Virus record (IMG/VR): IMGVR_UViG_3300042503_000983
Span: 8,943-72,942 of that record
DNA length: 64,000 nucleotides
Strand: one strand, 5' to 3'
Source: a virus
A program made the translations under genes and the position numbers. Shown piece by piece: positions 31,036 to 49,858 of this stretch; position 1 is the first letter of the stretch, and the number at the start of each line of letters is the position of its first letter. The notes under the pieces are model-generated. The model was not told the DNA's origin, made no database searches, and worked only from the letters and a program-made list of their open reading frames with translations.

Positions 31036-31051
31036 AGGATATAATGATATT

Positions 31052-36149: not shown

Positions 36150-36498
36150 TGAAGAAATAAATGAGCAAGAACTTTCAGAAATGATTGAGTACCTTATTGA
36201 ACTAGGTGCTATGGAAATTATGGGGTACGACTCTGTATCAGATAATTTTACATACAGAATTACTTCAAAGTGTAAAGAGATATATCCAGAACTATATTAC
36301 TCACACTATGAGGCTGTTGGAGAGCTAGCACAAAGCCTTTGGATGCAAGATATTATTGACATAGTATTTACTGAGGGTGAAACAATTGTTGGCGTTACTC
36401 AAGAACAGATAGATTTTATAAAAGAAACCATGCACACTTTTACTGATGATGAAAGATTTTTTCTTGAAACAATTTTATCCCACTACGATCAAAAATAA
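36139..36498 (+). CDS. Hypothetical acidic protein
   Basis: ORF with RBS. Confidence 0.55.
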   Translation: MENNEEINEQELSEMIEYLIELGAMEIMGYDSVSDNFTYRITSKCKEIYPELYYSHYEAVGELAQSLWMQDIIDIVFTEGETIVGVTQEQIDFIKETMHTFTDDERFFLETILSHYDQK

Positions 36499-36512
36499 GA
36501 TATAATGTAGTT

Positions 36513-37718
36513 ATGAGTATTATCAAGGCTGATGAGTGGGAGGGTGAACCCCTTTACAATATGCTTTCAGAAGATGAAAAGGCTTTTGCAGACTCATTAC
36601 TAAAATTAACAGAAGACGTTGGACCACTAGATCAATCAGAGGGTATCTGGATTGGATATGAAGATGGTGCTAATAATGAAAATCTTTCAATTGGTGTTAA
36701 GTGTGGAAACTGTGCTCTTCACAAATCTGCTATTGCTTGTGCAATAATTTCACAACAGATTGAAGAAAATGGTATTTGTAGACTTGCAGTAATTCCAGAC
36801 GGATATGTAAATTCTGATATGAAAAATTCTGGAGAAGAGTTTGAAGAAATGAATCCTGAAATGTATAAGTCTGATAATGAAGATGAAGATAAGTGGGACA
36901 ACCTAGAAAAGAAATGCTGGGTTGGATACAGACAAGATGGAATGAAAGAAAAGAATGGAAGAATGGTTCCAAACTGTGTACCAGTTAAAAAATCAGAAGA
37001 TGGCGTTCTTGGAAATGATGACACTCCAAATAAAAATCCTCACAGCATGGAAGATTGTACAGATAAAAATTGTCCAGAGCATCATATGGGAAAGAAAGAT
37101 TACTCTGATAAAGAAAGACAGATGCTAGCTCGTAGAGACATGGCTTTACCTGATGGATCTTTTCCAATTGTTACGGTGGCAGATTTAAGTAATGCAATTC
37201 AAGCAGTTGGACGTGCCTCAAATTACTCAAGGGCTCGTAATCATATCATTAGAAGAGCCAAAGCCCTTAACAGAGAAGACTTACTTCCAGAAGATTGGAA
37301 GCCAAAGTCTGCAAGAAAGTCTTTTGAAATTGAAAAAAGAGATGTATCAGATATTGATTTAAAGCCAACTGAAACAATGGCTAACAATGCAAAAAGAGGT
37401 CTTGAGCTTAGAGCTAAGTTTGGTAGAGGTGGAACTGCAGTTGGAGTTGCTCGTGCTCGTGATCTAAGTAACCGTACAAATCTAAGCCCAGAAACTGTTG
37501 CAAGAATGTATTCTTTTTTCTCAAGACATGAGGTAGATAAAAAGGGTAAAGATTGGGACAATGCAGAGCGTCCATCAAATGGTAAGATAGCCTGGCTACT
37601 CTGGGGTGGAGATGCTGGATATGCTTGGTCAACACAAAAATGGAAAGCTATTCAAAATGCAAGAGCATCTAAATCAGATGACACTTGGAAAGACTCACCA
37701 TTTTCTTTTTATAAATAA
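36513..37718 (+). CDS. Multi-module protein, probably head-associated
   Basis: Modules CGNC..C, CWVGY..MVPNCVP, ALPDGSFPI (DUF6582-like), GRGGTAVG..AWLLWGG. Confidence 0.55.
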   Translation: MSIIKADEWEGEPLYNMLSEDEKAFADSLLKLTEDVGPLDQSEGIWIGYEDGANNENLSIGVKCGNCALHKSAIACAIISQQIEENGICRLAVIPDGYVNSDMKNSGEEFEEMNPEMYKSDNEDEDKWDNLEKKCWVGYRQDGMKEKNGRMVPNCVPVKKSEDGVLGNDDTPNKNPHSMEDCTDKNCPEHHMGKKDYSDKERQMLARRDMALPDGSFPIVTVADLSNAIQAVGRASNYSRARNHIIRRAKALNREDLLPEDWKPKSARKSFEIEKRDVSDIDLKPTETMANNAKRGLELRAKFGRGGTAVGVARARDLSNRTNLSPETVARMYSFFSRHEVDKKGKDWDNAERPSNGKIAWLLWGGDAGYAWSTQKWKAIQNARASKSDDTWKDSPFSFYK

Positions 37719-38093
37719 TTGGAGGCAGTTATGAAAAAAATATCCCCCTTTAGAACTTTTTCAGGATGCCTAGTTGCCATAAACTTTTTTGCAGTAAATG
37801 TATTTGTTCTAATAGAATCTTTTTATAGAAAAGATGAGTTAGAAATATTCTTCACCAAATCCTTGCCAAACTCTACAAAGAGCCAGCTAGACAAGGTTCT
37901 AGATGAAGAGACTGTAAGGGTAGCCATTCAAGATAATAGTGCCTATTGGGTGGTAGACAACATACTTTACAAGTGTGACATAAATGAAGAAGGAAGAATT
38001 GATAATGAAAATGCTGAAAAGGTTGACGTTTTTAACTTATCAGAAAAAGAAATAAGTAATTTAATTTCTATAATAGATAGCATAAATAGCTAA
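37719..38093 (+). CDS. Hypothetical membrane-anchored protein
   Basis: N-terminal hydrophobic segment. Confidence 0.5.
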   Translation: MEAVMKKISPFRTFSGCLVAINFFAVNVFVLIESFYRKDELEIFFTKSLPNSTKSQLDKVLDEETVRVAIQDNSAYWVVDNILYKCDINEEGRIDNENAEKVDVFNLSEKEISNLISIIDSINS

Positions 38094-38099
38094 ATAAAG

Positions 38100-38128
38100 T
38101 TGACAAAGGTCAAATAAAAATGTATAAT
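38100..38128 (+). promoter_or_regulatory. Canonical sigma-A promoter
   Basis: TTGACA-N17-TATAAT. Confidence 0.8.
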
Positions 38129-38154
38129 AGTGTTTTAAGAGAAAAGGTATAGCC

Positions 38155-38505
38155 ATGGTTATTGTAGTTGAGGGAACAAAAGCGTTCTCTGATTATGAAA
38201 TATTTATGAGAGCAATGACAGTAGCTTTGTCAACTCCAAATGATAACAATCAAATTCAGGTATGGAGTCTTGGACCTCATAAGATTAATAATTTTACTGC
38301 ATCTTTTTGTAACTCTTCAGAAAATTATTTAAAGCAAAAAGGTTTTAAGGTTTCTTTTTCCAAGGTTGCTGAACAATGGGTTAGACAAAATATTGAGCAT
38401 ATAACATATTATGCATATTTTAGTTTGCCAAAAGAACCGTTGTCAAAATTTGCAACACACATGGAACATCAAGAAGATATTGAGATGGGAATATTTAGAT
38501 ACTAA
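38155..38505 (+). CDS. Hypothetical protein (SLOG/YspA-like start)
   Basis: MVIVVEGTKAFSDY. Confidence 0.5.
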   Translation: MVIVVEGTKAFSDYEIFMRAMTVALSTPNDNNQIQVWSLGPHKINNFTASFCNSSENYLKQKGFKVSFSKVAEQWVRQNIEHITYYAYFSLPKEPLSKFATHMEHQEDIEMGIFRY

Positions 38506-38768
38506 TGAGTCTTTCAACCTGGTCACTAATAGTTTTTACAGCACACTGTTTATTTTATTCTTCAATGTTTATTGCAGTTACATTTAAAGCAAGTGTAACT
38601 AAAATATCTTTGATGATTATTTTTTGGATTATAAATCAAGTAGTAATTCTTTGGTATGGCATTGCAACAAATCAAATAGGGTTCATTTTAATATTTATAT
38701 TGCAATTTATTGTCACCCTATTAACATTAATCATTACTACAGAAAGATCTATTAGTGAAAATATCTGA
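38505..38768 (+). CDS. Small membrane protein
   Basis: Three hydrophobic segments. Confidence 0.55.
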   Translation: MSLSTWSLIVFTAHCLFYSSMFIAVTFKASVTKISLMIIFWIINQVVILWYGIATNQIGFILIFILQFIVTLLTLIITTERSISENI

Positions 38769-38982
38769 TCTAAATAAAATGGAATCAATAGTAGGTAACA
38801 ACCCTTCTTTAAAATGGGAAGGTTGGAGCGTAGTATTTATTGAAGAGGATGGAGATGCTAACTTGAAAAAGAATGCAGCCTTCATTGACTCTAAGTGGCA
38901 CAAGAAGATTGTGTTTGAAAATATTGATGGGGTATGGGATATTCCAGACTCTATATTAAGGAAGGGCGATGTACAAGTTTGA
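38755..38982 (+). CDS. Hypothetical protein
   Basis: Coupled ORF. Confidence 0.55.
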   Translation: MKISDLNKMESIVGNNPSLKWEGWSVVFIEEDGDANLKKNAAFIDSKWHKKIVFENIDGVWDIPDSILRKGDVQV

Positions 38983-39250
38983 TGAAAAAGCTTTATGCCT
39001 TAATATGGATACAAATCTTTTCTTTGATCAATATGAAGAAAATCCAGAAGTTTCAAAAAAAGTAGATCTTTTATGTATAAAATGTCCAGCACAAAGACAG
39101 TGCCTAGCTTATGGAGTCAGTAATTCTGAGTGGGGTGTTTGGGGCGGTGTTTACCTAGAAGGTGGAAAGATATCTAAAGAGTTTAACAGTCATAAAGAAA
39201 AGACTGACTGGTTTAATGTTTGGTCTGGAATAACTTTGGAAAATAGCTAA
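38969..39250 (+). CDS. whiB: WhiB-family Fe-S transcription factor
   Basis: C-x25-C-x2-C-x5-C with LFF and GVWGG turn. Confidence 0.9.
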   Translation: MYKFDEKALCLNMDTNLFFDQYEENPEVSKKVDLLCIKCPAQRQCLAYGVSNSEWGVWGGVYLEGGKISKEFNSHKEKTDWFNVWSGITLENS

Positions 39251-39498
39251 TGTACACAGCACAAATGAAAAAGGCTGTACACTCAGTAAAGCCTCCAAAT
39301 GATTTTCACATGGACATAGTTGACTACAAACACTTCCTTGCTATACAATTTTATGAGAGTCATTGGAGACATATGAACGACTCAGAAAGACTTCGTTGTA
39401 TAAAGTATATGACGAAAATAAAAACAATGCTGGAGAGTCTTGGAGCACAGGTAGCCCTGGATCCAATTCTTGACATAACACACCCAGGTAAGGGTTAA
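39250..39498 (+). CDS. Hypothetical protein
   Basis: Coupled to whiB. Confidence 0.55.
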   Translation: MYTAQMKKAVHSVKPPNDFHMDIVDYKHFLAIQFYESHWRHMNDSERLRCIKYMTKIKTMLESLGAQVALDPILDITHPGKG

Positions 39499-39508
39499 GG
39501 AGAAAAAA

Positions 39509-39919
39509 ATGGCTACACTAATTACAGTAGTTGGAAATCTAGTAAAAGATCCAGAAATTAAGGATCTTGGCTCTGGAAAAGTTCTTGCAAAGCTTAGAGT
39601 TGCAAGTACTGAAAGGTTTCAAGATTCTGATGGATCTTGGAAAGATGGGGACACAGCATTCTATGATGTTGTATGTTGGAGAACGTTAGCAGAAAATGTC
39701 TCATCAAATCTTTCAAAGGGCAATAAGGTAATTGTTCATGGTAAATTAAAGTATCGTGAATTTGATCGCAAAGATGGAACAAGAGGAAATGCTTTTGAAA
39801 TTGATGCCACAGATGTTGGTGCATCTTTATCAATCAAGTCTGGAACATTTAATAAAACTAGTAATGTTTCAAACTCAACAGTTTCAGTTGGAGCAGAAGA
39901 GCCTGATCCCTGGGCTTAG
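39509..39919 (+). CDS. ssb: Single-stranded DNA-binding protein
   Basis: VGNLVKDPE, CWRTLAENV, VIVHGKLK, acidic DPW tail. Confidence 0.9.
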   Translation: MATLITVVGNLVKDPEIKDLGSGKVLAKLRVASTERFQDSDGSWKDGDTAFYDVVCWRTLAENVSSNLSKGNKVIVHGKLKYREFDRKDGTRGNAFEIDATDVGASLSIKSGTFNKTSNVSNSTVSVGAEEPDPWA

Positions 39920-39926
39920 TTTAATT

Positions 39927-39965
39927 GGTACTCCCTCATTATAAACATGGGGGAGTATCTTTTAT
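39927..39965 (+). terminator. Intrinsic terminator
   Basis: GGTACTCCCTCAT/ATGGGGGAGTATC stem followed by TTTTAT. Confidence 0.7.
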
Positions 39966-39982
39966 AAAAGAATGAGAGTATT

Positions 39983-40492
39983 GTGAATAAAGTTTGTTAT
40001 AAATGTAAAGAAGAAAAGTCTATAGATCTTTTTTATAAGAAAAGCTCTACTAAAGATGGACTTACGTCTCATTGTAAAAAATGTATAAATTTATATAACT
40101 CTGAAAAGAAAGAACAAAAAAGAGAGTATGACTATTACTATCGTATAAGAAATAGAAAACGAATTAAAAAAGTTAAAGACCTTTATTATTTAAATAATCA
40201 TGAGTTGTATAGAGATAAAGCTCATGGTCGCAGAGCTAAAGTAAATCAAAATGGAGTTTTTAAAATACTTAGAAAAGAACTAAAAAGGTTGTATAGCTCA
40301 CCATGTTTTTATTGTGGATCATTAAATAAAATTACTATAGATCATGTTATTCCAATCAGCCGTGGTGGAACTCATGGAATAGGAAATTTGGTTGCAGCCT
40401 GTGCTTTTTGCAACAGAAGTAAAAATAAAAAGTTTTTAATTGAATGGAAGAGAGATTTGACATTTTTAAAGAATTCTGGTAAAGTAGATTAA
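39983..40492 (+). CDS. Free-standing HNH endonuclease
   Basis: CFYCG, IDHVIPISRGG, NLVAACAFCNRSK. Confidence 0.88.
   Translation: MNKVCYKCKEEKSIDLFYKKSSTKDGLTSHCKKCINLYNSEKKEQKREYDYYYRIRNRKRIKKVKDLYYLNNHELYRDKAHGRRAKVNQNGVFKILRKELKRLYSSPCFYCGSLNKITIDHVIPISRGGTHGIGNLVAACAFCNRSKNKKFLIEWKRDLTFLKNSGKVD
40457..40485 (+). promoter_or_regulatory. Sigma-A promoter, leaderless transcript
   Basis: TTGACA-N17-TAAAGT, ATG 6 nt downstream. Confidence 0.65.
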
Positions 40493-40665
40493 TGCCAGTA
40501 TATTTATATGCATGTGAAAAATGCGAGGATAACAAAGAGTTGGTAAAGGGTATGAATGACCCTGATCCAATAATTTGTCCAGATTGTAGTAGTAACATTA
40601 AAAGAATTTTTGGTGTAGGTGGAATTCAATTTAAAGGAAAAGGCTTTTATAGCACAGGAGGATAG
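40492..40665 (+). CDS. FmdB-family zinc-ribbon protein (57 aa, not in ORF track)
   Basis: MPVYLYACEKC...CPDC...IQFKGKGFYST. Confidence 0.85.
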   Translation: MPVYLYACEKCEDNKELVKGMNDPDPIICPDCSSNIKRIFGVGGIQFKGKGFYSTGG

Positions 40666-40666
40666 T

Positions 40667-42460
40667 ATGTTAAAGAATAGAGGATTTCAATACGACTTCT
40701 TTGCAGAAGAGTGGTCATTTGATTGTAGTGCATGTGGAGAAAAACTTTATGCTCCAACCAAAAAACACATGGAAGGTAATTTCTGGATTCATACTCACTC
40801 AGATGATTGTTTAGGTGGATGGTAATGAATAAAGAAGAACTTGAAGAAGCACTTTCATATATAGATGAAGAAGTTATGGTAATGGATGGTTTTGAAGAAG
40901 CATTTATAGGACTATCCTTAAGATGTGGTCAGCCAACTCTTGCAACATACTCGTGGCAAAAAATGGTAGATGTTTTAATGGACAGAGATGACATGGAATA
41001 TGAAGAGGCAGTAGAATACATTTCTTACAACTGCCTTGGTGCTTGGATGGGAGAACTTACCCCAGTTGTAGTTCTACCTTTGGAGTTTTAATGTCTGATA
41101 AAAAAGAAGTATTTAATCAATGCTATATGTGTGAAGAAATGTTTATAGACATACTAGATTTAATCAATCACATTAAGACAGTACACAAAAATGAAACAGG
41201 AGTTTTTTAATGTCATTAGTTGCAAAAATTAAACAAATGTTGAAAGAGTACCAAGAAGAAAATGGAACTCTTGATGATAAAGAATATGAAAAGTTATTTG
41301 TGCATTTTTATTTACAGCATGAAGATGAGTACTTAAAGAAAAGAATTAGCTCTATTAGATCAGATGGAAAAAGTAGGAACTTTAGATGAAAGTTAGAATA
41401 AGCAAGAGAGAGTATTCAGACTATATCGAAAACGATACAGACATTGCCCTTGCAGCAGAGATGGCTGTTATAGTTGCAAAGTCAAACCCGATGGTTATTG
41501 GAGAGCCTGTTGCTGAAATTAGTCCAGGATGTCCTATGGGATATGCCAGACCAAAAGTAATTCTGAACTATGATATTATTAACCCTAGTGCCTTTGATAA
41601 ATTAAAAATGATTTTAACAGGAAAATCTTTAAATGATATTGTCAAAGAAATCAAGGGAGAAGTTTAAATGGATTTTGAATTACATCATGAAAAAGATGCT
41701 GGACCAATAGTTCGTTGGTTTGCAAATAAAATGTTAATCCTGTTGCATAAGGTTGAAAAGCCTTTGTATGACTATGCAGATATGTATACAGCAGTATGGG
41801 ATGACTATGAAGAAGATGTGGATCTTTATACTCCTCATAATCAAATGGCATTCTTTGATAACCTTGAACCACTGCCTCAGTTTGAGCACTTAACAGATGA
41901 CCTACTATAATGTGCGATGAAGTTTATTATTATAAAGATCAGGTAAGAGAGCTTCAAGCTATTAATGGTTTTGTTAAAAGAAACACCTTGCTTTCTGTGC
42001 AAAGTAGAATAGAATATGTTAGAGACGAACGAGTCAAATTAGGATTACCAGTTCATGGTGTCGCTATGGCTCTTGAAATAGTTAGGACAATGTTGAATGA
42101 AAAATAAAAAAGAAGTAAAAGATGCAAGAACAATAATTTATGAAAACAATTTATACACAGTAGATGAGTTTGTTAATAAATATTCTCAAGCTTTAAAGTC
42201 ATATTTACTTACAAGACAACTTGGAGATAAGAGCAAGAAGTCTCACATAGTTGATCTTGCGGTAGAAAATGCATCCTTTGCAGAATCTCTTTATATTTCA
42301 GTGGATAGTTTTAGATAATGTTTCTTACAAAGATGATTAGGTTTGCAGAAAAAATTGGCATGGACGTAGACGAACTTATGGAAATGACAGTCCTTGATGC
42401 CATAATGAAAATAGAAGATACAAGAACAATGTGGGCAGAATTAAAAAAGGATATTGGTTA
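40667..42460 (+). CDS. Run of about 9 small hypothetical genes
   Basis: Tightly packed ORFs, e.g. 40667-40825, 40807-41091, 41386-41667, 41668-41910, 41910-42107, 42097-42318. Confidence 0.55.
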
Positions 42461-42475
42461 AGGTATAATACTTAT

Positions 42476-43414
42476 ATGAATAAAATAATTGACATAAAGG
42501 TAATAGGATGCGGTGGCGGTGGAGTAAATGCCGTTAATAGCATGATCACTTCTGGTCTGTCTGGAGTAGAGTTTATTGGAATAAATACAGATGCTCAAGC
42601 ACTTCTACCAAGCTTAGCAGATGTAAAAATTGATATTGGAAAAGATAGAACTCGTGGTCTTGGTGCAGGTGCAGATCCAAACATTGGTAGGCTTTCTGCA
42701 AAAGACAGTGTAAATGAAATATCCGAAGTTGTTCATGGTGCAGACGTTGTTTTTGTAACTGCTGGAATGGGTGGTGGAACTGGAACTGGTTCTGCTCCAA
42801 TAGTTGCTAACTGTGCTAAAAAGGCTGGTGCATTAACTGTAGGCGTTGTAACTACCCCATTTGCATTTGAGGGAAAGAAAAGAATGAACAATGCCTTAGA
42901 AGGAATTAATAGTTTTAGTAAGGAAGTTGACACCCTTATAGTTATTCCAAATGAAAATTTAATTCAGATGCTTGATCCAAATATTTCTATGGAAGATGCA
43001 TTTAAAGAGGCTGATGACGTTCTTCTTAAAGCAGTAGCAGGTATTTCAGATCTAATTACTACACCTGGTCAAATTAATATTGACTTTGCAGATATAAAAA
43101 GGGTAATGAAAGATGCTGGTTCTGCTTTTATGGGAATTGGATACGCAGAGGGAGAGGATCGTGCTGAAGTTGCAGGTAATAAAGCAATTACTAGCCCTAT
43201 TCTTAATGTTGATTTGCATGGTGCTACTGGTGTCCTAATTTCAATCGCATCCTCTGGTCAAATAAAGATGCAAGAAGTAAATAAAATTGCATCCCTTGTA
43301 GGAGATAAGGCACACGAAGATGCTGATATTATTTTTGGAACAGTTTTAGATGAAGATTTAGAAGACGGAATTTTAGTAACGGTAGTAGCTACAGGATTTG
43401 TTGGCAGTGAATAA
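42476..43414 (+). CDS. ftsZ: FtsZ (GTPase core only, 312 aa)
   Basis: GGGGVNAVN, NTDAQAL, GLGAGA, GGGTGTG, PFAFEG, NIDFADIK, VVATGF; ATG 6 nt after TATAAT. Confidence 0.93.
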   Translation: MNKIIDIKVIGCGGGGVNAVNSMITSGLSGVEFIGINTDAQALLPSLADVKIDIGKDRTRGLGAGADPNIGRLSAKDSVNEISEVVHGADVVFVTAGMGGGTGTGSAPIVANCAKKAGALTVGVVTTPFAFEGKKRMNNALEGINSFSKEVDTLIVIPNENLIQMLDPNISMEDAFKEADDVLLKAVAGISDLITTPGQINIDFADIKRVMKDAGSAFMGIGYAEGEDRAEVAGNKAITSPILNVDLHGATGVLISIASSGQIKMQEVNKIASLVGDKAHEDADIIFGTVLDEDLEDGILVTVVATGFVGSE

Positions 43415-44144
43415 TTTAGTAGAAAAAAATACTCAATACGGATACATGTCTTATTTTAAAAATGATATGGCATTTGCAGATAGCCTAAATGCTGGACAAG
43501 TTTATGAACAAGACTTTGTAATGGAATTTTTGCAGGACGTAGTTAAGTCTAGTAAAACTATTTTAGATATAGGATCCCACGCTGGATCTCATACAGTATT
43601 ATATAAGCATATAAATCCAGATTGTAAAATATACTGCTTTGAACCTCAGTCAGAAATGTTCAAACTACTTGAGCATAATATTTCTAAAAACTCTTTTAAA
43701 GATGTTATTGCTCATAACAAAGGGGTAGCCAATGTAGCAATTAAATCAAGCATGAGCAAGTCCGTTCTTGATGGTGATAATGTTGGAAAAGCTATTGAGT
43801 ATGGGACTGGTAAAAGATTTAATTTAGGTGGGCTACAGGTAGGAAATGGTGGAGAAGAAATTGAAACCCTTACTGTTGATAGTTTAAATCTTACTGAGTG
43901 TGACTATATTAAAATTGACGTTGAAGGCTTTGAACCACTTGTTTTGATGGGGGCAGAACAAACAATAAAAAAGTTTAAGCCAACTATATTGTTTGAGTCT
44001 AATCACAAGGTTATTTCAAAAGAAATGGCTGAAAGTTTTGGACTTTCTTATCCAGTAGCAAGTTCATTTGACATCTTAAAATCGTATGGGTATAAAGACA
44101 TAGTTTTAATTGACGGTCTTTGGAATTATTTAGCTAGGTATTAG
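43398..44144 (+). CDS. FkbM-family methyltransferase
   Basis: LDIGSHAG, FEP, IKIDVEGFE. Confidence 0.85.
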   Translation: MLAVNNLVEKNTQYGYMSYFKNDMAFADSLNAGQVYEQDFVMEFLQDVVKSSKTILDIGSHAGSHTVLYKHINPDCKIYCFEPQSEMFKLLEHNISKNSFKDVIAHNKGVANVAIKSSMSKSVLDGDNVGKAIEYGTGKRFNLGGLQVGNGGEEIETLTVDSLNLTECDYIKIDVEGFEPLVLMGAEQTIKKFKPTILFESNHKVISKEMAESFGLSYPVASSFDILKSYGYKDIVLIDGLWNYLARY

Positions 44145-44152
44145 GTTAATAT

Positions 44153-45055
44153 ATGCTATTTGATAATACAGGAAAAAATGTTGTAAACAATTTAAATGAA
44201 AACTATATTAGAAAAACCCTTGTTCCGTTAAAACACCACTTTAATTTTTCTGAAACCAAACTATTGTACGATGAAAAAGATTTATATTTTAACATGAGCT
44301 TAATCTCTTTTGAAAATGAACTTCACTATGCTGTTAGAGGAGGTCACAAACATATTGGAAAAATGTATTTACATCCAGAGTTTACTAGCACTGTTCATGT
44401 TGGAGTAGTTGACGAAGCTATAAAAAATAGAAGGCAGATAAATGTTACATTCCCTAAAGTAAAAAATGGAACACTTGGAATGGAAGACCCTAGAATATTT
44501 GAATGGAAAAACAAACTATTCTTTTCTGGAGACATTCCTTTTAACTTAAGAGGCAGAAGTCAAAAAAATGCTTTTGTAAATATTGAAACTAATGAGTGTG
44601 AAGTTTTTGTAGACCCACTCAATAGAAAGATGAGTAAAAATTGGATGCCATATGTAAATGAAGATAATCTTTATTTTGTTATTGATGTTTTACCAACAAG
44701 AATTTTAGACACAAAAACAAGGAAGGCTCAGGCTTATAATGATAAGGTTGTTACAAACACACCAGTCTATGGTGGTCCAAGAATTATAAACATAGATGGG
44801 ATTAAAACTTCAATCGTTCATGGAAGAGCTAACAATGCTTACTGGCACTCTATAGCTCAGTGGGATGATAATTGGAATTTAAAAATTTCTGATCCTTTTT
44901 ATTTTACCAAGCCTGGAGTTGAATTTTGCACAGGATACGAAGTTCATAATGGAAAACTATATTTTACATATTCAGAGTATGATGATGGAGTTGTGTTGTG
45001 CAGCATAGATCTTGATTCATTTTTAAATAGTGCTATTTGGAGCAGAAATGTTTAA
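44153..45055 (+). CDS. Beta-propeller glycoside hydrolase/phosphorylase-like protein
   Basis: EDPRIF and KNWMPY motifs as in GH130-like folds. Confidence 0.55.
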   Translation: MLFDNTGKNVVNNLNENYIRKTLVPLKHHFNFSETKLLYDEKDLYFNMSLISFENELHYAVRGGHKHIGKMYLHPEFTSTVHVGVVDEAIKNRRQINVTFPKVKNGTLGMEDPRIFEWKNKLFFSGDIPFNLRGRSQKNAFVNIETNECEVFVDPLNRKMSKNWMPYVNEDNLYFVIDVLPTRILDTKTRKAQAYNDKVVTNTPVYGGPRIINIDGIKTSIVHGRANNAYWHSIAQWDDNWNLKISDPFYFTKPGVEFCTGYEVHNGKLYFTYSEYDDGVVLCSIDLDSFLNSAIWSRNV

Positions 45056-45812
45056 AGAAATAGATTATAACAAGCACTTTGTTATTGGTACACCGCTCGT
45101 TGGATGGAAAGTTGACAGAAAAGAACACCTTGCCTGGATTCAAGATAGTAAAGAAATATTGGAAAGGTTTCCAAATGCAAAATTTTTTGCTGCTCTTGAG
45201 TTAGACTCTAGAGGAGAACAAGTTTTTTATGAAATTATAGATAGACTAAAAGATATAGATGGAGAGTATTGGACGTACTCAATAAATGATAAGGAAAGTA
45301 TAGTTACCTCTTATAATAGATGGATAAGAATTGAAACTGGTAGAAATCTTATTAGAGAGTTTGCACAAAGACATAGAAAAATGTCAGGACATCATTGGGG
45401 AGAAAATTCTTCAAAAGAAAATAAGGGTGCAATAAACTATGATGCAATTTTATATGTTGATTCAGATACAATAGTTAATGTAGAAATTATTGAAAAAATG
45501 ATGGAAATAGATCATCCAGTTGTAAGCGTAAACGTACCAGCTTATGGTTTAAAAGGTAAAGTTATAAATGAAAATCCAAGAATAGAAGAGCATTGGAATA
45601 CTGCTGGAATGTTATTAGTAAATTCTCCAGCTTTTTATGACCTTTCTTGGGGGTATAATGCTATAGAAAATTTGAGTGACGATCCAACTTTTCAAAACCA
45701 TGCAGAAAGACTTGGATATGGGCAAACTTGGGTTAGGAAAGACATCAATGCAAAGCATATTGGAAAATTACTTCCAGTAGAAAATAGAAGAATTCCTCCT
45801 AGAGATCTATAG
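45048..45812 (+). CDS. GT-A fold glycosyltransferase-like protein
   Basis: GRNLIRE, ILYVDSD (DxD), SDDP. Confidence 0.55.
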   Translation: MFKEIDYNKHFVIGTPLVGWKVDRKEHLAWIQDSKEILERFPNAKFFAALELDSRGEQVFYEIIDRLKDIDGEYWTYSINDKESIVTSYNRWIRIETGRNLIREFAQRHRKMSGHHWGENSSKENKGAINYDAILYVDSDTIVNVEIIEKMMEIDHPVVSVNVPAYGLKGKVINENPRIEEHWNTAGMLLVNSPAFYDLSWGYNAIENLSDDPTFQNHAERLGYGQTWVRKDINAKHIGKLLPVENRRIPPRDL

Positions 45813-45830
45813 ATTTCCTTAGGATGGGAA

Positions 45831-45859
45831 ACGACCTAGACAAGTCGTAAAACTGTCTA
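45831..45859 (+). ncRNA. Compact H-type pseudoknot, copy A
   Basis: ACGAC-C-TAGACA-A-GTCGT-AAAAC-TGTCTA. Confidence 0.55.
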
Positions 45860-45885
45860 ATTTTTATTTATGATAAACTAGATAG

Positions 45886-46395
45886 ATGCACAAAAAGTTT
45901 TTAGCCTTTATATTTTCAATAGTCTTAGTTTTTTCTTATATTCCACCAGCAAATGCTTCTTCAGATTCTATAAGATACAAGACGGAAAGTAATCAAACAA
46001 TTAAAAAGGGTAAGTGGACAACTTTAAGATTTGATGGTGGAAAAACAGCAATTCAGGGTAATGGAAAAAGATCTTTGTTTTGTTATCAAGCTGGTATTGA
46101 TACAAAGGGAAAGAAAAAGCCTTCATATATTAAGTTAAGAATAACTAGAATAGTTCCAGGACCAAATGATCCTAGTGCAACAAATACATACTTCTTTACA
46201 GATAAGCCAGGAAGTAAGTTTGTTGCATCTAATTGTTGGAACATTGTAACTAAGCATCCAGTAGTTGTTCAAATAAGAATTGTTGGCGGAAGTAAAACAT
46301 ATAACTCTGACATAAGACAATTTAAAATGTGGACACCTAATGCAGAATATCCATCAGACTTTTCTGACTTTATGCCTGAAACAACCATTAATTAG
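45886..46395 (+). CDS. Secreted basic protein
   Basis: Signal peptide ending ANA; leaderless start. Confidence 0.6.
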   Translation: MHKKFLAFIFSIVLVFSYIPPANASSDSIRYKTESNQTIKKGKWTTLRFDGGKTAIQGNGKRSLFCYQAGIDTKGKKKPSYIKLRITRIVPGPNDPSATNTYFFTDKPGSKFVASNCWNIVTKHPVVVQIRIVGGSKTYNSDIRQFKMWTPNAEYPSDFSDFMPETTIN

Positions 46396-46456
46396 TTTAT
46401 TAGTAATGATATAATAGATTTGTTAGATACGTCTAACGAGGAGTCTATGCAATAAA

Positions 46457-48019
46457 TTGAAGAAAATCTTTTCCTACCTACTATTAATTCCAATGATTTT
46501 AATTGGTACGATGTTTTTAGCATCTCCAATTACACAAGCAAATACTCCTCTTACTTGTAATATGTCTACTATTACTGGTGATGACGATGGATCATTTGAA
46601 ATGCTATTGCCTTTTTCTTTAAAGCTTGGACCAACAGAATATAATAGAATTTATTACAGTACTAATGCAACTGTAACCTTTGGTCAGCCAGATGGAACTT
46701 TTCACGACTACCCTCAGACCCCTTCTGTTTCTGTAGCAGGTAGAGACTGGGTATCTTTTGGAGAAGGTGCATATACTTCATACGGATATAATCAAAACTC
46801 TTTTTGTATAGAATGGTCAGTTCGCCCATTTCCACAATCAAGTGGTCCACTAACTCAAATTAGATTGGTTGTAAATAAATTTACTAATGGTAACTGGCAT
46901 GGTGAAATTACTACAATGACAGACCTTCCAGGAGATGCAAGAAGAGGAATTAGGTACGAGTATGGTCAGCCAGTTGTAACTATGGAAGCAGCCTTTGACG
47001 TTGGCAACGGAGGAATTCCAGTTGAAGTTGAACCTGCACCAACCCCATCAAGTTTTACAGAACCACCTGCAATTCCAACTCAATGTTGGGATGGTAGTAC
47101 GGTTTATTCTCCTACCACTTGCCCTACAGAACCAGCCCCTACTGAATGTTGGGACGGGTCTTCTGTTACTTGGAGAGATACTTGCCCTCCTACACCACCA
47201 GATGTAGTTTGCTGGAACGATGAGGTGGTTCCTTGGAATCAATCCTGTCCACAAGTTCCACCATTAGTTGAGTGTTGGAATGGAACATCTGTAAACTGGA
47301 ACGAACAATGTCCAGTTCAGCCAACACCTACGCCCAGCCCTGAGCCACAGCAGTCAGAATCACCAGAGCCAACAGTAGAACCGTCACCCCAGCCATCAGA
47401 GCCAAGCCCAGAGCCGTCAGAACCTGTTGTGCAACCTTCAGAAACTTCTTCACCTACTCCAACTCCTTCTTTAAGTCCCTCAGAATCTCCGTTGCAGCCT
47501 GTAGCACCTGTTGTAACTCCATCCCCAACTCCTGAGCCAGAGACTTCATCTCCAGAACCATCAGTTCCAGACTCAGATGAGAGTCCATCTCCTGATCCAA
47601 GTCCTTCATCCACTGATCTTCCATCTAATAATAATATCATAGATGGTCTAACAGCAGAGGAATCAGCTGCTTTAAATGAACTACTTACAGAGTATGGTCC
47701 AATGGATGCAATATCTTTTGAAGACTTTGAAGCATCAGGTCTTGACTATGAAGATTTGCCACCAGATCAGCCAGTTATGTTAGATAACGGAGTTATTCTT
47801 ACAGCAGAAGTTGCGGATGCAATTGAGATGTTTGAAAATCCCTCTGAATTACTACTAACAGTTTTAACTGATCCAGGTAAGGCATTAAAAGCTTTTGCTA
47901 ATGTTGGTGCAGACATGACACCAGAACAACGCAAAGAATCGCAAGCTGTAGTTGTTGCTTCTGTAATTGTTGGACAATTAATAGCATCAACTAATTTAAT
48001 AACAGGGAGGATAAGATAA
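46457..48019 (+). CDS. Exported/membrane protein with four CW(D/N)x repeats and Pro/Ser/Thr linker
   Basis: Signal peptide, repeats, C-terminal hydrophobic segment. Confidence 0.7.
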   Translation: MKKIFSYLLLIPMILIGTMFLASPITQANTPLTCNMSTITGDDDGSFEMLLPFSLKLGPTEYNRIYYSTNATVTFGQPDGTFHDYPQTPSVSVAGRDWVSFGEGAYTSYGYNQNSFCIEWSVRPFPQSSGPLTQIRLVVNKFTNGNWHGEITTMTDLPGDARRGIRYEYGQPVVTMEAAFDVGNGGIPVEVEPAPTPSSFTEPPAIPTQCWDGSTVYSPTTCPTEPAPTECWDGSSVTWRDTCPPTPPDVVCWNDEVVPWNQSCPQVPPLVECWNGTSVNWNEQCPVQPTPTPSPEPQQSESPEPTVEPSPQPSEPSPEPSEPVVQPSETSSPTPTPSLSPSESPLQPVAPVVTPSPTPEPETSSPEPSVPDSDESPSPDPSPSSTDLPSNNNIIDGLTAEESAALNELLTEYGPMDAISFEDFEASGLDYEDLPPDQPVMLDNGVILTAEVADAIEMFENPSELLLTVLTDPGKALKAFANVGADMTPEQRKESQAVVVASVIVGQLIASTNLITGRIR

Positions 48020-48216
48020 TGAAGAAATGGTTAAAAGATAAGTTTCGTGAAACACTAAACCAAACATTTACCCTTCTTGGTATGTTCGTAGCATGGGCAG
48101 TCCTTGATGGGTCTGCTAAAACAGTAGTAGGATGGGCAATTGTAGTATGCGTAATCATATGGTTATTTTCAATGAAATTCAGAGAACAAGAGGAGGAAAA
48201 AAATGACAAAGAATAA
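48019..48216 (+). CDS. Small 2-TM membrane protein
   Basis: Hydropathy by eye; coupled ORF. Confidence 0.6.
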   Translation: MKKWLKDKFRETLNQTFTLLGMFVAWAVLDGSAKTVVGWAIVVCVIIWLFSMKFREQEEEKNDKE

Positions 48217-48481
48217 AGAAGAAGTTATTGGATCAACATCAGTAACAAATGTCTGGAACATATTTTTTAGAATAGTTGCAGTATTTGCTGCATCTGGACT
48301 TTCAATCATTGGTGCAGGTTCTTTAGTTGGAATTGATACACTAACAGCCGTAATTATGGCTGGAACTCTTGGAGTTGCAACGGTAGTAGAAAAACTTGCT
48401 AGAGCTTTTCTAGATGATGGCAAGTTAAGTGCTAAAGAAATTAATTCAGCATTTAGTTCAGTAGACAAGAAAGCAGAATAG
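48203..48481 (+). CDS. Holin-like 2-TM protein
   Basis: Two TM segments directly upstream of the M23 peptidase. Confidence 0.5.
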   Translation: MTKNKEEVIGSTSVTNVWNIFFRIVAVFAASGLSIIGAGSLVGIDTLTAVIMAGTLGVATVVEKLARAFLDDGKLSAKEINSAFSSVDKKAE

Positions 48482-48544
48482 TAAGTAGGCTATAATAGAG
48501 TAGGGGAGTCCTCCAAAGGGCTCCCTTATTTTATAAAAAAGGAA

Positions 48545-48943
48545 ATGATTCAAATGGGTTCACCAATTGTTGGAGGTAAGGTTACAACACCTTACAAGAA
48601 GCTTGGAAAAATGTGGAGCAAAGGCTATCACACAGGCGTAGACTATGCTTGCAAAGTTGGAACAGACATTGTTGCTGTTGCTGATGGCAAGATTGAAAAT
48701 GCTACCTGGGGAGCCAGCTATGGCACTCAGTTAGTCCAGAAAGTTGAGGGTGGATGGGTAATCTATGCACACCTTTCAAAGGCTCTAGTTAAGGCTGGAG
48801 ACACAGTAAAGAAGGGGCAGCATATTGCTGAGTCTGGTAATACAGGCAACTCTTCAGGTCCTCATCTTCACTTTGAAATGAGAGATAATATTAGATGGAG
48901 TGCAGGTAAAGACATTGATCCTGCTAAGATTCTTGCATCTTAA
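48545..48943 (+). CDS. M23 peptidase (endolysin-like)
   Basis: HTGVD, YAHL, GNTGNSSGPHLHFE. Confidence 0.9.
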   Translation: MIQMGSPIVGGKVTTPYKKLGKMWSKGYHTGVDYACKVGTDIVAVADGKIENATWGASYGTQLVQKVEGGWVIYAHLSKALVKAGDTVKKGQHIAESGNTGNSSGPHLHFEMRDNIRWSAGKDIDPAKILAS

Positions 48944-48961
48944 TATATCAAATTAACAATT

Positions 48962-48984
48962 GCCCCTAGAAATAGGGGCTTTTG
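48962..48984 (+). terminator. Intrinsic terminator
   Basis: GCCCCTA-GAAA-TAGGGGC-TTTT. Confidence 0.8.
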
Positions 48985-49059
48985 TATTTAATAAAACTAT
49001 TTATCATTTTGTTATAATAAAAACTTGATTTTATTAAGTATTAGTGGTATTCTAGAATA

Positions 49060-49599
49060 ATGCGTATCAGAACCTTGGTTCCGATTGCCCTTGTTGCGGT
49101 TCTTGCAATTGCATCCCTACCAACAAGCCACAGTCAGACCAGTGCTAATGCACCGCAAAATGTAGCAAGTATAATAAATCAAGATAGAAGTATCAGGATT
49201 GCTGAACTTGCAACATATGATAAAGAAAAGAAGAAAGAAAAAACTAGAGGTAATGAAAAAGCTTCTAGATCCAAGAGAGCTAACTCTCTTGCTGCTAAAG
49301 CTAATCAAGCTTTTGCAAAGTCCTATATGGAGTCTAAATACTCTTGGGGCGAAGACCAGCACTCTTGCCTTGTGAATCTATGGAATCGTGAAAGTGGGTG
49401 GAGGCATACTGCTGACAACCCAACTTCAAGTGCCTATGGAATTCCACAAGCCTTGCCTGGAAAGAAAATGGCAAGTGCAGGGGCAGATTGGAGAACAAAT
49501 CCAGAAACACAAATCAAATGGGGTCTAAAGTATATTAAGCATAGATACGAGACCCCCTGTGGAGCATGGGGTGCATTCAAGAAAAAGGGCTGGTATTAA
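49060..49599 (+). CDS. Secreted lytic transglycosylase (SLT-like)
   Basis: Signal peptide; LWNRESGW, AYGIPQALP, QIKWGLKYI..RY. Confidence 0.85.
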   Translation: MRIRTLVPIALVAVLAIASLPTSHSQTSANAPQNVASIINQDRSIRIAELATYDKEKKKEKTRGNEKASRSKRANSLAAKANQAFAKSYMESKYSWGEDQHSCLVNLWNRESGWRHTADNPTSSAYGIPQALPGKKMASAGADWRTNPETQIKWGLKYIKHRYETPCGAWGAFKKKGWY

Positions 49600-49616
49600 T
49601 TTACTAGTTTAATTAG

Positions 49617-49646
49617 ATGTCCTGAGCAAAGACATTAAACTGCTCA
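49617..49646 (+). ncRNA. Compact H-type pseudoknot, copy B
   Basis: ATGTC-C-TGAGCA-AA-GACAT-TAAAC-TGCTCA. Confidence 0.55.
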
Positions 49647-49653
49647 TTTAAAC

Positions 49654-49682
49654 TTGACAAAGCAAAGGATATGGTGTAAAAT
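49654..49682 (+). promoter_or_regulatory. Sigma-A promoter, leaderless transcript
   Basis: TTGACA-N17-TAAAAT, ATG at 49689. Confidence 0.7.
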
Positions 49683-49858
49683 CTAGGTATGGATAAATTA
49701 AAAATTATTATTGAAGAACCAAGTGGGTCAAGACGATCATTTTTTTATAACGTAAAAGATGAGGCAGAAGCAAAAGATATTGTAAAAGGTATTAAAAAAG
49801 ACCTTAAGCCAAACTTTAGCCTAGCCTCTTGGAGCTATAAAGAAGACAAGGATAAGAA

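What the first reader, a model, noticed from the sequence alone, without database searches (positions are those of the whole stretch)
42476..43414. Phage-encoded bacterial-type FtsZ lacking the C-terminal linker and anchor peptide
Seen: a close match to the cellular FtsZ core with intact GGGTGTG and T7 loop (NIDFAD), ending four residues after VVATGF, with its own leaderless promoter. Known: the missing C-terminal peptide is what binds SepF/FtsA, tail-less FtsZ is dominant-negative, and phage PhuZ/TubZ proteins are far more divergent than this. Inference: a co-polymerising inhibitor of host division, or an early stage of repurposing FtsZ as a phage cytoskeleton.
Basis: partly seen in the sequence, partly recalled or inferred. 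Interest (0 to 1): 0.72.

Follow-up and report, generated by a model that had tools for sequence, protein, structure and literature searches.

The report
Tail-less FtsZ gene in freshwater actinophages
An uncultured phage of actinobacteria carries a well-preserved copy of the bacterial cell-division protein FtsZ that lacks the tail tying it to the membrane, most likely so that it joins the host's division filaments and stops the infected cell from dividing.

Summary
Window 42476-43414 (+) encodes a 312-aa FtsZ core: Pfam Tubulin plus FtsZ_C, and NCBIfam ftsZ equivalog at 390.6 bits against a 295.2 cut-off. The GGGTGTG box and T7 loop NIDFAD are intact, and the protein ends four residues after ATGF.

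The contig is a tailed phage, 72.9 kb and about 68% complete. A WhiB gene and 12 TGTCAG-N10-TAnnnT sites point to an Actinomycetota host.

In IMG/VR, 68 of 68 loci of two related low-GC clades stop 2-5 residues after ATGF (A: 78-93% identity; B: 63-65%). In contrast, 77 of 77 complete cellular relatives carry a 39-203-aa tail. Pairwise dN/dS has a median of 0.10. GGTATAAT lies 5-7 nt before the start codon in 40 of 40 clade A copies, but clade B lacks it.

The lineage is old. It sits on a long branch on the actinobacterial side of the tree and lacks the actinobacterial AGEGGG signature. One relative (G008) has the syntenic slot without FtsZ, so the gene is accessory.

The best reading, untested, is a polymerising subunit that co-assembles with host FtsZ off the membrane and blocks division. 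I found no paper describing it. This scan had already noted the same family on three other genomes.

The parts
42476..43414 (+). Phage ftsZ coding sequence: 312 aa plus TAA stop. It is the FtsZ globular core only, with no C-terminal linker and no C-terminal peptide.
   Evidence: ORF and translation. Pfam Tubulin plus FtsZ_C. TIGR00065 at 390.6 bits against a 295.2 cut-off. AlphaFold2 model with pLDDT 92.2 and pTM 0.90.
42462..42469 (+). GGTATAAT, a -10-type element 6 nt upstream of the ATG. It is the candidate promoter of a leaderless ftsZ transcript.
   Evidence: Sequence. This exact configuration is unique in the window. It is present 5-7 nt before the start in 40 of 40 clade A copies, including four loci whose upstream gene differs. 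TATAAT-N6/7-ATG is enriched, 9 against 3.0 expected. The transcription start itself is inferred.
42494..42973 (+). GTPase (Tubulin/FtsZ) domain, residues 7-166. It includes GGGTGTG at 42770-42790.
   Evidence: Pfam PF00091 at 2.1e-46. Invariant G-box columns in alignments A1 and A2.
43076..43093 (+). T7 synergy loop N201-I-D203-F-A-D206. In the FtsZ family this loop completes the GTPase site of the neighbouring subunit in a filament (established knowledge of the family).
   Evidence: Sequence. N201, D203 and D206 are invariant in 64 aligned FtsZ sequences.
43118..43399 (+). FtsZ C-terminal globular subdomain, residues 215-308, ending in ATGF. Only VGSE follows before the stop.
   Evidence: Pfam PF12327 at 3.3e-29, profile positions 1-94 of 95. 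The end point is the same in 68 of 68 clade A and B loci.
38960..39220 (+). WhiB-type transcription factor gene. It is context, used as a marker of an Actinomycetota host.
   Evidence: Cys motif and GVWGG found by script. Pfam PF02467 at 45.4 bits against a 23.6 cut-off. A homologue is present in 27 of 40 related loci.

Best explanation
This is a functional, selected phage gene for an FtsZ polymerisation core. It was taken long ago from the actinobacterial side of the FtsZ family and has been kept without the linker and C-terminal peptide.

Proposed mechanism (inferred):
1. During infection the protein is made from its own promoter. In clade A this is probably a leaderless mRNA.
2. It binds GTP and enters filaments through the conserved top face (GTP pocket) and bottom face (T7 loop). 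It does so alone and together with host FtsZ.
3. It cannot bind the membrane anchor SepF or any other partner of the C-terminal peptide. Mixed filaments are therefore poorly tethered and tend to bundle in the cytoplasm.
4. Z-ring function fails, and the infected cell keeps growing without dividing, to the phage's benefit.

Shown here: identity, domain integrity, conserved truncation, purifying selection, phage and host context. Inferred: polymerisation, co-assembly, the division block and the benefit.
For: (1) It is a bona fide FtsZ core. It scores above the cut-off of the ftsZ equivalog model and matches both Pfam domains. The model is confident, with pLDDT 92.2. The best solved matches are FtsZ chains 6ym9, 6ym1 and 1rlu at about 380 bits.

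(2) The polymerisation machinery is kept. Of 147 columns conserved in at least 90% of 72 distinct cellular cores, 119 are identical and fixed in the phage clade. Thirteen carry a fixed change, mostly conservative. The G-box and T7 loop are unchanged.

(3) The protein is under purifying selection. Nei-Gojobori dN/dS has a median of 0.10 and a range of 0.03-0.21 over 745 usable of 780 pairs.

(4) The tail-less state is the selected state. All 39 full-length clade A ORFs are 310-312 aa, with three different stop codons. In IMG/VR, 68 of 68 clade A and B loci stop 2-5 residues after ATGF. In contrast, 77 of 77 complete cellular relatives carry 39-203 further residues, which by eye end in the D-[IV]-P-x-F-type peptide. 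No such peptide motif occurs anywhere else in the 72.9-kb record.

(5) The host phylum uses the missing peptide. The phage has WhiB and its best cellular matches are Actinomycetota. In Actinobacteria the canonical anchors are absent and SepF is the anchor (abstract of 10.1101/732925, seen in the listing).

(6) There is experimental precedent for the mechanism. Caulobacter FtsZ reduced to the GTPase domain (delta-CTLC) polymerises, forms large bundles in vitro, and makes elongated cytoplasmic structures instead of Z-rings. Delta-CTL co-polymerises with wild type and is dominant (10.1101/171280, passages). Agrobacterium FtsZ1, a natural paralogue without linker and peptide, co-polymerises with the full-length FtsZ and is recruited by it (10.1101/412759, passages).

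(7) It has its own conserved promoter-like element in clade A.
Against: There is no functional test of any kind, and no RNA data.

Agrobacterium FtsZ1 shows that a tail-less co-polymerising FtsZ need not disturb division.

The phage core is only 56-57% identical to the FtsZ of the freshwater actinobacteria sampled (Rhodoluna, Planktophila). It is no closer to them than to soil genera. Co-assembly with the unknown real host's FtsZ is therefore an assumption.

All 11 phage sequences examined have M where 60 of the 65 rows labelled Actinomycetota have E, in AG-E-GGGTGTG. Of the other five, 2 have K and 3 were not matched.

A 312-aa GTPase kept under strong constraint is an expensive way to block division compared with the small peptide inhibitors that other phages use. 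That cost would fit a role as the phage's own filament equally well.

One relative (G008) lacks the gene at the syntenic place, so it is not essential to this phage type.
Confidence: 0.5

Rival explanations
1. It is an autonomous phage cytoskeleton. The tail-less FtsZ forms its own cytoplasmic filaments or bundles, independent of host FtsZ. These organise phage replication, DNA or virion assembly, as PhuZ and TubZ do.
For: The whole core, including GTPase residues, is under strong constraint. The stem branch is long (about 1.1 changes per site) and is followed by slow evolution, which is the pattern of a change of function. GTPase-domain-only FtsZ polymerises and forms long bundles unaided (10.1101/171280). 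The gene is old and is kept in two clades under different expression arrangements.
Against: No partner of a TubZ-type system (a TubR-like DNA adaptor) was recognised among 49 ORFs scanned with Pfam, though small ORFs are mostly unannotated. PhuZ and TubZ use C-terminal extensions for filament contacts (recalled, not tested); this protein has none. At about 60% identity to host-type FtsZ with unchanged interfaces, it would be hard for it to avoid host FtsZ. One relative does without it.
Confidence: 0.25
2. It is a benign modulator of the Z-ring. It co-polymerises with host FtsZ, like Agrobacterium FtsZ1 or Magnetospirillum FtsZm, and tunes ring dynamics, cell size or septal wall synthesis without a full division block.
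For: Natural tail-less paralogues co-assemble with the main FtsZ and are dispensable, with no division phenotype (10.1101/412759). The phage gene is accessory (G008). It sits at the edge of a variable island: the downstream methyltransferase and GH130-like genes are shared by 1 of 40 loci.
Against: A phage in a lytic cycle gains little from subtle tuning. The constitutive-looking consensus -10 element suggests strong expression, though this is inferred. No lysogeny genes were noticed among the ORFs scanned, but not all ORFs were scanned.
Confidence: 0.12
3. It is a decoy. The free FtsZ core soaks up host factors that bind the globular domain, such as division regulators, proteases, or a defence system that monitors FtsZ.
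For: Phage-FtsZ conflicts can be sensed by host immunity. A CapRel defence protein senses T7 Gp0.4 together with FtsZ (PMC13423816; I saw only the title and the start of the abstract in the listing). The core surface is largely host-like, with 119 of 147 conserved columns kept. Its charge is like actinobacterial cores, at pI about 4.4.
Against: A decoy would not need intact GTPase and T7 residues under such strong constraint. No known core-binding factor of the unknown host can be named.
Confidence: 0.08
4. It is a decaying or non-functional captured host gene fragment, or host contamination of the contig.
For: In the GenBank phage collection, FtsZ hits are host DNA. The best one, MT835570.1, is a high-GC actinobacterial dcw fragment with MurG, MurC, FtsQ, a tailed FtsZ, SepF and DivIVA-like ORFs.
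Against: Here the gene has the phage's own 34-35% GC. It lies between phage genes in conserved order. It is intact in all 39 full-length clade A copies and ends at the same point in 68 of 68 clade A and B loci. Its dN/dS is about 0.1.
Confidence: 0.02

Closest known systems
Cellular FtsZ of Actinomycetota. The best solved matches are chains 6ym9, 6ym1, 6y1u and 1rlu; that these are Mycobacterium tuberculosis FtsZ is my recollection, since the tool gives only 'Cell division protein FtsZ'.
   Same: Same two-domain core, aligned end to end (residues 4-308) at about 380 bits. It is 57-62% identical to actinobacterial cores, with the same G-box, T7 loop and acidic charge. It passes the ftsZ equivalog cut-off.
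   Different: It has no linker and no C-terminal peptide. It is encoded by a phage outside any dcw cluster. It has M, not E, before GGGTGTG. It sits on a long separate branch, and neither a position nested in cellular Actinomycetota nor one beside them is rejected.
Natural tail-less cellular FtsZ paralogues: Agrobacterium tumefaciens FtsZ1 (Atu_4673), the truncated second FtsZ of Rhizobium meliloti, and Magnetospirillum gryphiswaldense FtsZm
   Same: They are truncated right after the GTPase core and coexist in the cell with a full-length FtsZ. FtsZ1 co-polymerises with the main FtsZ and depends on it for localisation (10.1101/412759, passages). This is the closest model for how the phage protein would behave.
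   Different: They are chromosomal genes of Alphaproteobacteria and are dispensable under the conditions tested (10.1101/412759). The phage protein is viral and lies on the actinobacterial side of the tree. I had no sequence of these paralogues, so direct relatedness was not tested.
Engineered FtsZ lacking linker and peptide (Caulobacter crescentus delta-CTLC and delta-CTL)
   Same: The same architecture, made in the laboratory. The GTPase domain alone polymerises, bundles, has slower GTP turnover, and forms elongated cytoplasmic structures instead of rings. Delta-CTL co-polymerises with wild type and is dominant lethal (10.1101/171280, passages).
   Different: It is an artificial construct in a Gram-negative host with FtsA, FzlC and ZipA-type anchors. 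The lytic phenotype belongs to delta-CTL, which keeps the peptide, and not to the fully tail-less form.
Phage tubulins PhuZ and TubZ (phiKZ-like jumbo phages, Clostridium phage c-st)
   Same: They are phage-encoded members of the tubulin/FtsZ superfamily and share the fold. The BFVD matches have TM 0.60-0.77 normalised to the query.
   Different: They are only 11-21% identical and belong to different families. PhuZ and TubZ serve DNA or nucleus positioning, as said in passages of PMC7824862 and the abstract of PMC3678025. The present protein is an orthodox FtsZ by every sequence test.
Small phage inhibitors of FtsZ (lambda Kil, Rac KilR, T7 Gp0.4)
   Same: They have the same proposed outcome, a block of host division during infection. 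They are listed as known FtsZ inhibitors in PMC11895373 (passage).
   Different: They are unrelated small proteins that bind FtsZ. Here the proposed inhibitor is itself an FtsZ subunit.

Membership tests
FtsZ (NCBIfam TIGR00065; Pfam PF00091 + PF12327) | Whole-protein score above the curated cut-off of the ftsZ equivalog model | tested here: met
   390.6 bits against a 295.2 cut-off, covering profile positions 18-324 of 353. A six-frame search of the record gave 399.6 bits.
FtsZ (NCBIfam TIGR00065; Pfam PF00091 + PF12327) | N-terminal GTPase domain with the GGGTGTG nucleotide-binding box | tested here: met
   PF00091 at 2.1e-46 over residues 7-166. G99-G105 lie in invariant or near-invariant columns.
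FtsZ (NCBIfam TIGR00065; Pfam PF00091 + PF12327) | C-terminal globular subdomain and T7 loop N-x-D-F-A-D | tested here: met
   PF12327 at 3.3e-29 over residues 215-308. NIDFAD is at residues 201-206, and N201, D203 and D206 are invariant in 64 sequences.
FtsZ (NCBIfam TIGR00065; Pfam PF00091 + PF12327) | Disordered C-terminal linker plus conserved C-terminal peptide that binds membrane anchors | tested here: not met
   The protein ends 4 residues after ATGF. The same holds in 68 of 68 phage loci. It is present in 77 of 77 complete cellular relatives. There is no peptide-like motif elsewhere in the record. The protein is therefore an FtsZ-family member by its core, but not a complete division FtsZ.
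FtsZ (NCBIfam TIGR00065; Pfam PF00091 + PF12327) | GTP-dependent head-to-tail polymerisation and GTP hydrolysis | not testable with these tools
   Only the residues needed are seen to be conserved.
Phage tubulins PhuZ/TubZ | Sequence membership in the PhuZ/TubZ lineages | tested here: not met
   The best BFVD matches are 11-21% identical. The protein instead matches the ftsZ equivalog model.
Phage tubulins PhuZ/TubZ | Partner DNA adaptor (TubR plus centromere) or phage-nucleus gene set | tested here: inconclusive
   Nothing of the kind appeared among 49 ORFs scanned with Pfam and 10 with PHROGs. Many small ORFs have no family, and the record is about 68% complete.
Tail-less cellular FtsZ paralogues (FtsZ1/FtsZm type) | Truncation directly after the GTPase core, coexisting with a full-length FtsZ | tested here: met
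   The truncation is shown. Coexistence with host FtsZ during infection follows from the phage life style and is inferred.
Tail-less cellular FtsZ paralogues (FtsZ1/FtsZm type) | Common descent with the alphaproteobacterial paralogues | not tested
   No sequence of those paralogues was at hand. The phage clade groups with Actinomycetota against Bacillota plus Chloroflexota at SH-aLRT 96, which makes common descent unlikely.

The most novel reading that the evidence does not exclude
These actinophages build a membrane-free FtsZ filament system of their own inside the host. It is a living intermediate between cellular FtsZ and the phage tubulins (PhuZ, TubZ). It both captures host FtsZ and serves as a phage cytoskeleton, for example to elongate or organise very small host cells for the assembly of a phage whose tape measure protein is 3135 aa long.
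Probability: 0.2. Interest if true: 0.85.

Novelty: new variant of a known kind. Interest (0 to 1): 0.6.

Why it matters
Phages are known to stop host division with small inhibitor peptides, and to build cytoskeletons from very divergent tubulins. A phage that carries an orthodox FtsZ core with the membrane-binding tail removed would be a third strategy. The tail has stayed removed across two clades and at least 68 metagenomic contigs, so nature has run the 'delta-CTLC' experiment and kept the result.

It would give a natural dominant-interfering FtsZ for Actinobacteria, a phylum whose division machinery (SepF-anchored, without FtsA) is still poorly understood. It would also offer a possible glimpse of how cellular FtsZ can be recruited into a viral filament system.

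The phages appear common in lake metagenomes, judging by the many IMG/VR contigs and protein clusters. The gene may therefore affect cell size and division of abundant freshwater bacteria.

Tried and rejected
Host contamination was rejected. The gene has the phage's GC and conserved phage neighbours. The FtsZ hits in the GenBank phage collection, by contrast, are host DNA: MT835570.1 is a high-GC dcw fragment. Megablast of window 30000-50000 against that collection found nothing.

A pseudogene or remnant was rejected.

A hidden tail was not found. Reading past the TAA by eye in the sequence meets another stop after about 14 codons, with no peptide motif. A regular-expression scan of all six frames of the 72.9-kb record for D/E-[ILV]-P-x-F-type peptides found none.

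A phage-encoded anchor or adaptor was not found. No SepF, FtsA or ZipA-type family appeared among 49 ORFs scanned with Pfam. The conserved 47-aa and 73-aa upstream ORFs (36 and 34 of 40 loci) have no family. The 47-aa ORF also occurs in G008 without FtsZ, and clade B has a different upstream gene. I therefore do not propose them as partners.

Recent capture from the present host was not supported. There is no closer match to freshwater actinobacteria than to soil ones. The stem branch is long, and the residue before the G-box is M, not E.

Tree artefacts:
- In the first tree the phage clade joined two other long branches, L109 and L112. I dropped those two rows, one partial row (L117) and seven identical Streptomyces rows for the second tree.
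- The AU rejection (p = 7e-33) was my error. I had left two mislabelled rows that nest among actinobacteria (L090, L083) out of the constrained group. With them included, no test was needed.
- Holding cellular Actinomycetota together without the phages costs 0.09 log-likelihood units, p-AU 0.485. Sister and nested positions therefore cannot be told apart.
- Both trees are 'quick' trees with SH-aLRT support only. Outgroups are limited to what the best 80 of a 600-row-capped scan contained.

Expression: no RNA holder was listed for window 41600-44200, and I did not lay reads.

Complex prediction was not used. A phage-FtsZ/host-FtsZ pair would pass by likeness to solved FtsZ filaments, and no neighbour had a good enough case.

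Literature: seven full-text searches found no paper describing a bona fide or tail-less FtsZ in a phage. The terms 'viral FtsZ' and 'phage FtsZ' had no occurrence in any paper listed. 'Phage-encoded FtsZ' occurred once, in PMC13423816, a paper on T7 Gp0.4. Phage G is reported to carry an 'FtsZ/tubulin-like GTPase' with a CetZ-type KEGG match (10.1101/2024.12.16.628780, passages). An 'FtsZ homolog' is mentioned on a circular contig that the authors compare with Pseudomonas jumbo phages (PMC7452251, passage). I could not compare either sequence. Subscription journals and supplementary files were not searched, so a prior mention, for example in a table of viral auxiliary genes, cannot be excluded.
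Full report
**1. The observation.** Window 42476-43414 (+) is an open frame of 312 codons plus TAA.
- It matches Pfam Tubulin/FtsZ GTPase (residues 7-166, 2.1e-46) and FtsZ_C (residues 215-308, 3.3e-29).
- It scores 390.6 bits on NCBIfam TIGR00065, the ftsZ equivalog model, whose cut-off is 295.2.
- GGGTGTG (residues 99-105) and the T7 loop NIDFAD (residues 201-206) are intact.
- The protein ends VVATGF-VGSE.
- A GTG 45 nt upstream would give 327 aa but overlaps the preceding ORF. All relatives start at the position of the ATG.
- AlphaFold2 with a 64-sequence alignment gives a confident model, pLDDT 92.2 and pTM 0.90.
- The best solved relatives by sequence are FtsZ chains 6ym9, 6ym1, 6y1u and 1rlu at about 380 bits, aligned over residues 4-308. 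I recall these as M. tuberculosis FtsZ. Crystallographic 'core' constructs are almost exactly as long as this natural protein.

**2. Phage and host.** The window is bases 8943-72942 of a 72,942-base IMG/VR virus record, linear, with CheckV completeness of 68%.
- It carries tail proteins, a DnaB-type helicase, a large DNA polymerase, a UvsX-like recombinase and a large terminase.
- It also carries primase, MazG, RuvC, an M23 peptidase and an SLT domain, and four tRNAs.
- GC is 31-41% in 2-kb windows and 34.7% around ftsZ.
- A WhiB gene lies at 38960-39220, at 45.4 bits on Pfam against a 23.6 cut-off. WhiB is, to my knowledge, confined to Actinomycetota and their phages.
- Twelve minus-strand TGTCAG-N10-TAnnnT sites lie between 54743 and 63844. 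I confirmed the sites, not the reading.
- The host is therefore very probably an actinobacterium. The low GC and the lake-type metagenome numbers of the relatives suggest a freshwater one, but the host species is unknown.

**3. Relatives and the truncation.**
- A peptide-pattern scan of IMG/VR found 40 loci at 78-93% identity. The 39 full-length ORFs are 310-312 aa, use TGA, TAG or TAA, and stop 2-4 residues after ATGF.
- The protein database returned 8000 scored candidates. The best 120 shown are all 307-314 aa and 83-99% identical.
- Through the terminase I reached more distant phages. I handed 13 long contigs of the 80 loci kept to a six-frame search, and 2 had FtsZ: G007 at 84% and G013 at 64%.
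- G013 founds a second clade B, and a scan with its protein added loci.
- A survey of IMG/VR with two degenerate FtsZ patterns returned 78 loci. I sorted them by script:
  - 48 in clade A.
  - 20 in clade B (63-65% identity).
  - 2 short fragments.
  - 8 others at 44-54% identity with 24-332 further residues. Two of these end in canonical IPTFLRKK- or LPPFLRKKK-type peptides, and several have high GC. They are probably host DNA or other elements.
- All 68 of 68 clade A and B loci stop 2-5 residues after ATGF.
- Among the 80 best cellular loci from GTDB genomes, 77 are complete and all 77 carry 39-203 further residues. The remaining three are cut by the contig end.
- No C-terminal-peptide motif exists elsewhere in the phage record.

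**4. Selection.**
- Nei-Gojobori estimates over the window and 39 clade A genes give median dN 0.061, dS 0.57 and omega 0.10. The range is 0.03-0.21 over 745 usable of 780 pairs.
- Of 147 alignment columns conserved in at least 90% of 72 distinct cellular cores, 119 are identical and fixed in 25 distinct clade A proteins.
- Thirteen columns carry a fixed change: A74S, M91V, L147F, G186A, V207I, A234G, L242I, G259S, L263I, L265M, A271I, I291L and E298G. Most are conservative, and eight lie in the C-terminal subdomain.
- Both filament faces look orthodox, so this is not a one-sided capping subunit.

**5. Origin.**
- The closest representatives in a 1.8-billion-protein library are 57-61% identical, 429-619 aa long, and look actinobacterial, with a DLDVPDFLK end.
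- The best named genomes are Actinomycetota at 59-62%. Bacillota reach 55-58%. Planktophila is at 57% and Rhodoluna at 56%.
- In a quick maximum-likelihood tree of 90 rows, the phage clade (support 100) sat on a stem of about 1.2 changes per site, next to two other long branches.
- I then removed those two rows, a partial row and seven identical rows, and added clade B. Clades A and B are sisters (support 100). Phages plus Actinomycetota, including two rows with misleading labels that nest among them, stand against Bacillota plus Chloroflexota with SH-aLRT 96.
- A tree that keeps cellular Actinomycetota together without the phages is only 0.09 log-likelihood units worse, p-AU 0.485.
- All 11 phage sequences examined have M before GGGTGTG, as do 12 of 13 non-actinobacterial rows. 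Of 65 rows labelled Actinomycetota, 60 have E, 2 have K and 3 were not matched. The clade B protein also reads AGMGGGTGTG.
- The core's charge (pI about 4.4, net -18 to -19) is like actinobacterial cores and unlike Bacillota.
- My reading is an old acquisition from the actinobacterial stem or a deep lineage, or a fast-evolving early phase. It is not a recent capture from the present host and not an 'early stage'.

**6. Expression signals and neighbourhood.**
- In clade A, GGTATAAT lies 6 nt (38 copies), 5 nt (1 copy) or 7 nt (1 copy) before the ATG or GTG. This is 40 of 40 copies, including four loci with a different upstream gene.
- No Shine-Dalgarno sequence lies at a working distance.
- TATAAT-N6/7-ATG is enriched in the window, 9 against 3.0 +/- 1.8 expected. 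Most other genes have GGAGG-type sites, 31 of 52 starts by a loose pattern.
- This fits a leaderless transcript, which is common in Actinobacteria (recalled). No RNA data could be had.
- Clade B has no such element. There ftsZ follows a nuclease-like gene directly, and in several loci an AAGAGG sequence precedes it.
- Upstream small ORFs are conserved (47 aa in 36 of 40 loci, 73 aa in 34 of 40). The downstream FkbM-type methyltransferase and GH130-like gene are shared by 1 of 40 loci. ftsZ therefore sits at the edge of a variable island.

**7. Not universal.** Fourteen contigs hold both the terminase relative and ftsZ (names compared across). One contig, G008, has a terminase 83% identical. 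It keeps the gene order up to the 47-aa ORF homologue, but then has a 60-aa ORF and paralogous ORFs of about 240 aa where ftsZ should be. The other ten long contigs searched end before the expected position, by my reading of the coordinates, and say nothing. The gene is thus accessory: widely kept, never seen decayed, but replaceable.

**8. Mechanism.** The following is established from papers I read in passages.
- Caulobacter FtsZ reduced to its GTPase domain still polymerises, bundles strongly, turns over GTP more slowly, and forms elongated cytoplasmic structures instead of Z-rings. Linker-less FtsZ co-polymerises with wild type and acts dominantly (10.1101/171280).
- Agrobacterium FtsZ1 is a natural protein without linker and peptide. 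It cannot polymerise alone, co-polymerises with the full-length FtsZ, and follows it to mid-cell. Similar truncated paralogues exist in Rhizobium meliloti and Magnetospirillum (10.1101/412759).
- Actinobacteria lack the canonical anchors and depend on SepF (abstract of 10.1101/732925).

From this I infer the following chain. The phage protein enters host filaments, or nucleates mixed ones. It lowers the density of SepF-binding tails and favours untethered bundles. This disables the Z-ring while growth and phage production go on.

I put this at 0.5. The alternatives are an autonomous phage filament system (0.25), a mild modulator like FtsZ1 (0.12), a decoy (0.08) and a dead remnant (0.02). The fully intact GTPase under strong constraint and the long stem branch keep the cytoskeleton reading alive. 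The cost argument against a mere inhibitor cuts the same way.

**9. Novelty.**
- In BFVD the nearest viral structures are tubulin-like proteins of 11-21% identity.
- The GenBank phage collection holds no true relative.
- Seven literature searches found no description of an orthodox or tail-less FtsZ in a phage. Supplements and subscription journals were not covered.
- This scan has already reported the same family on three other genomes (e1-5999437, e1-6021763, e1-6311119), with the same main reading.
- New here:
  - the second clade B and the 68-of-68 survey;
  - the relative without the gene;
  - the clade-specific promoter;
  - the missing actinobacterial E signature;
  - the finding that sister and nested positions cannot be told apart.
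- I class it as a new variant of a known kind: an FtsZ-family protein in a new carrier, with a naturally fixed truncation.

Noticed in passing
window 54743-63844, minus strand: Twelve sites read TGTCAG-N10-TAnnnT, and 11 of them begin TGTCAGACC. Each lies upstream of a minus-strand gene, and none is on the + strand. I confirmed only that the sites exist.
   Followed up: partly
window 22106, 31040, 36501, 42464, 51740 (+ strand); 53921, 61195, 61256 (- strand); 60881 (+ strand): TATAAT-N6/7-ATG occurs 9 times against 3.0 expected, and 0 of 100 shuffles reach 9. At least four sites coincide with ORF starts I had listed (22119, 36513, 42476, 53909). This suggests a class of leaderless transcription units beside the many genes with GGAGG-type ribosome-binding sites.
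   Followed up: partly
L212 (G008) 10675-12797: A relative lacks ftsZ. In its place are three paralogous ORFs (232 aa, 243 aa and at least 125 aa) that share a PYPAK..P.WYK..P start, plus a 60-aa ORF. I did not scan them for a family.
   Followed up: no
window 2125-11532 (+): A 3135-aa ORF is taken as the tape measure protein in earlier notes of this scan (e1-6181317, e1-6200795), which report inserted modules. If much of it acts as a ruler, the tail would be several hundred nanometres long, which is comparable to a small freshwater host cell. I use this only as a speculative motive for blocking division.
   Followed up: no
window 43398-45055 (+): An FkbM-type methyltransferase (PF05050, 9.7e-14) and a weak GH130-like ORF lie directly after ftsZ. 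They are shared by only 1 of 40 related loci, so this is a variable island. Nucleotide-sugar epimerase and dehydrogenase genes at 34108-36149 also hint at sugar modification.
   Followed up: partly
L286 (IMGVR_UViG_3300009163_000101, 34.5 kb, GC 0.35): This is a further low-GC viral contig. Its FtsZ is 52% identical to the window's and carries only 24 residues after the core, ending ...DFRDLFKK. It could be a third short-tailed viral FtsZ or host DNA.
   Followed up: no
P0122 (840 aa): The top-scoring representative is a tandem of two FtsZ cores (48% identical to the query), joined and followed by proline-rich linkers. It may be a natural fusion or an assembly or gene-calling artefact.
   Followed up: no
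window 57814-59789 (-): In the minus-strand block there is a DUF932 protein (171 bits) and an ORF with the ferredoxin-like domain of Api92-like proteins (PF18406). Their function is unknown.
   Followed up: no
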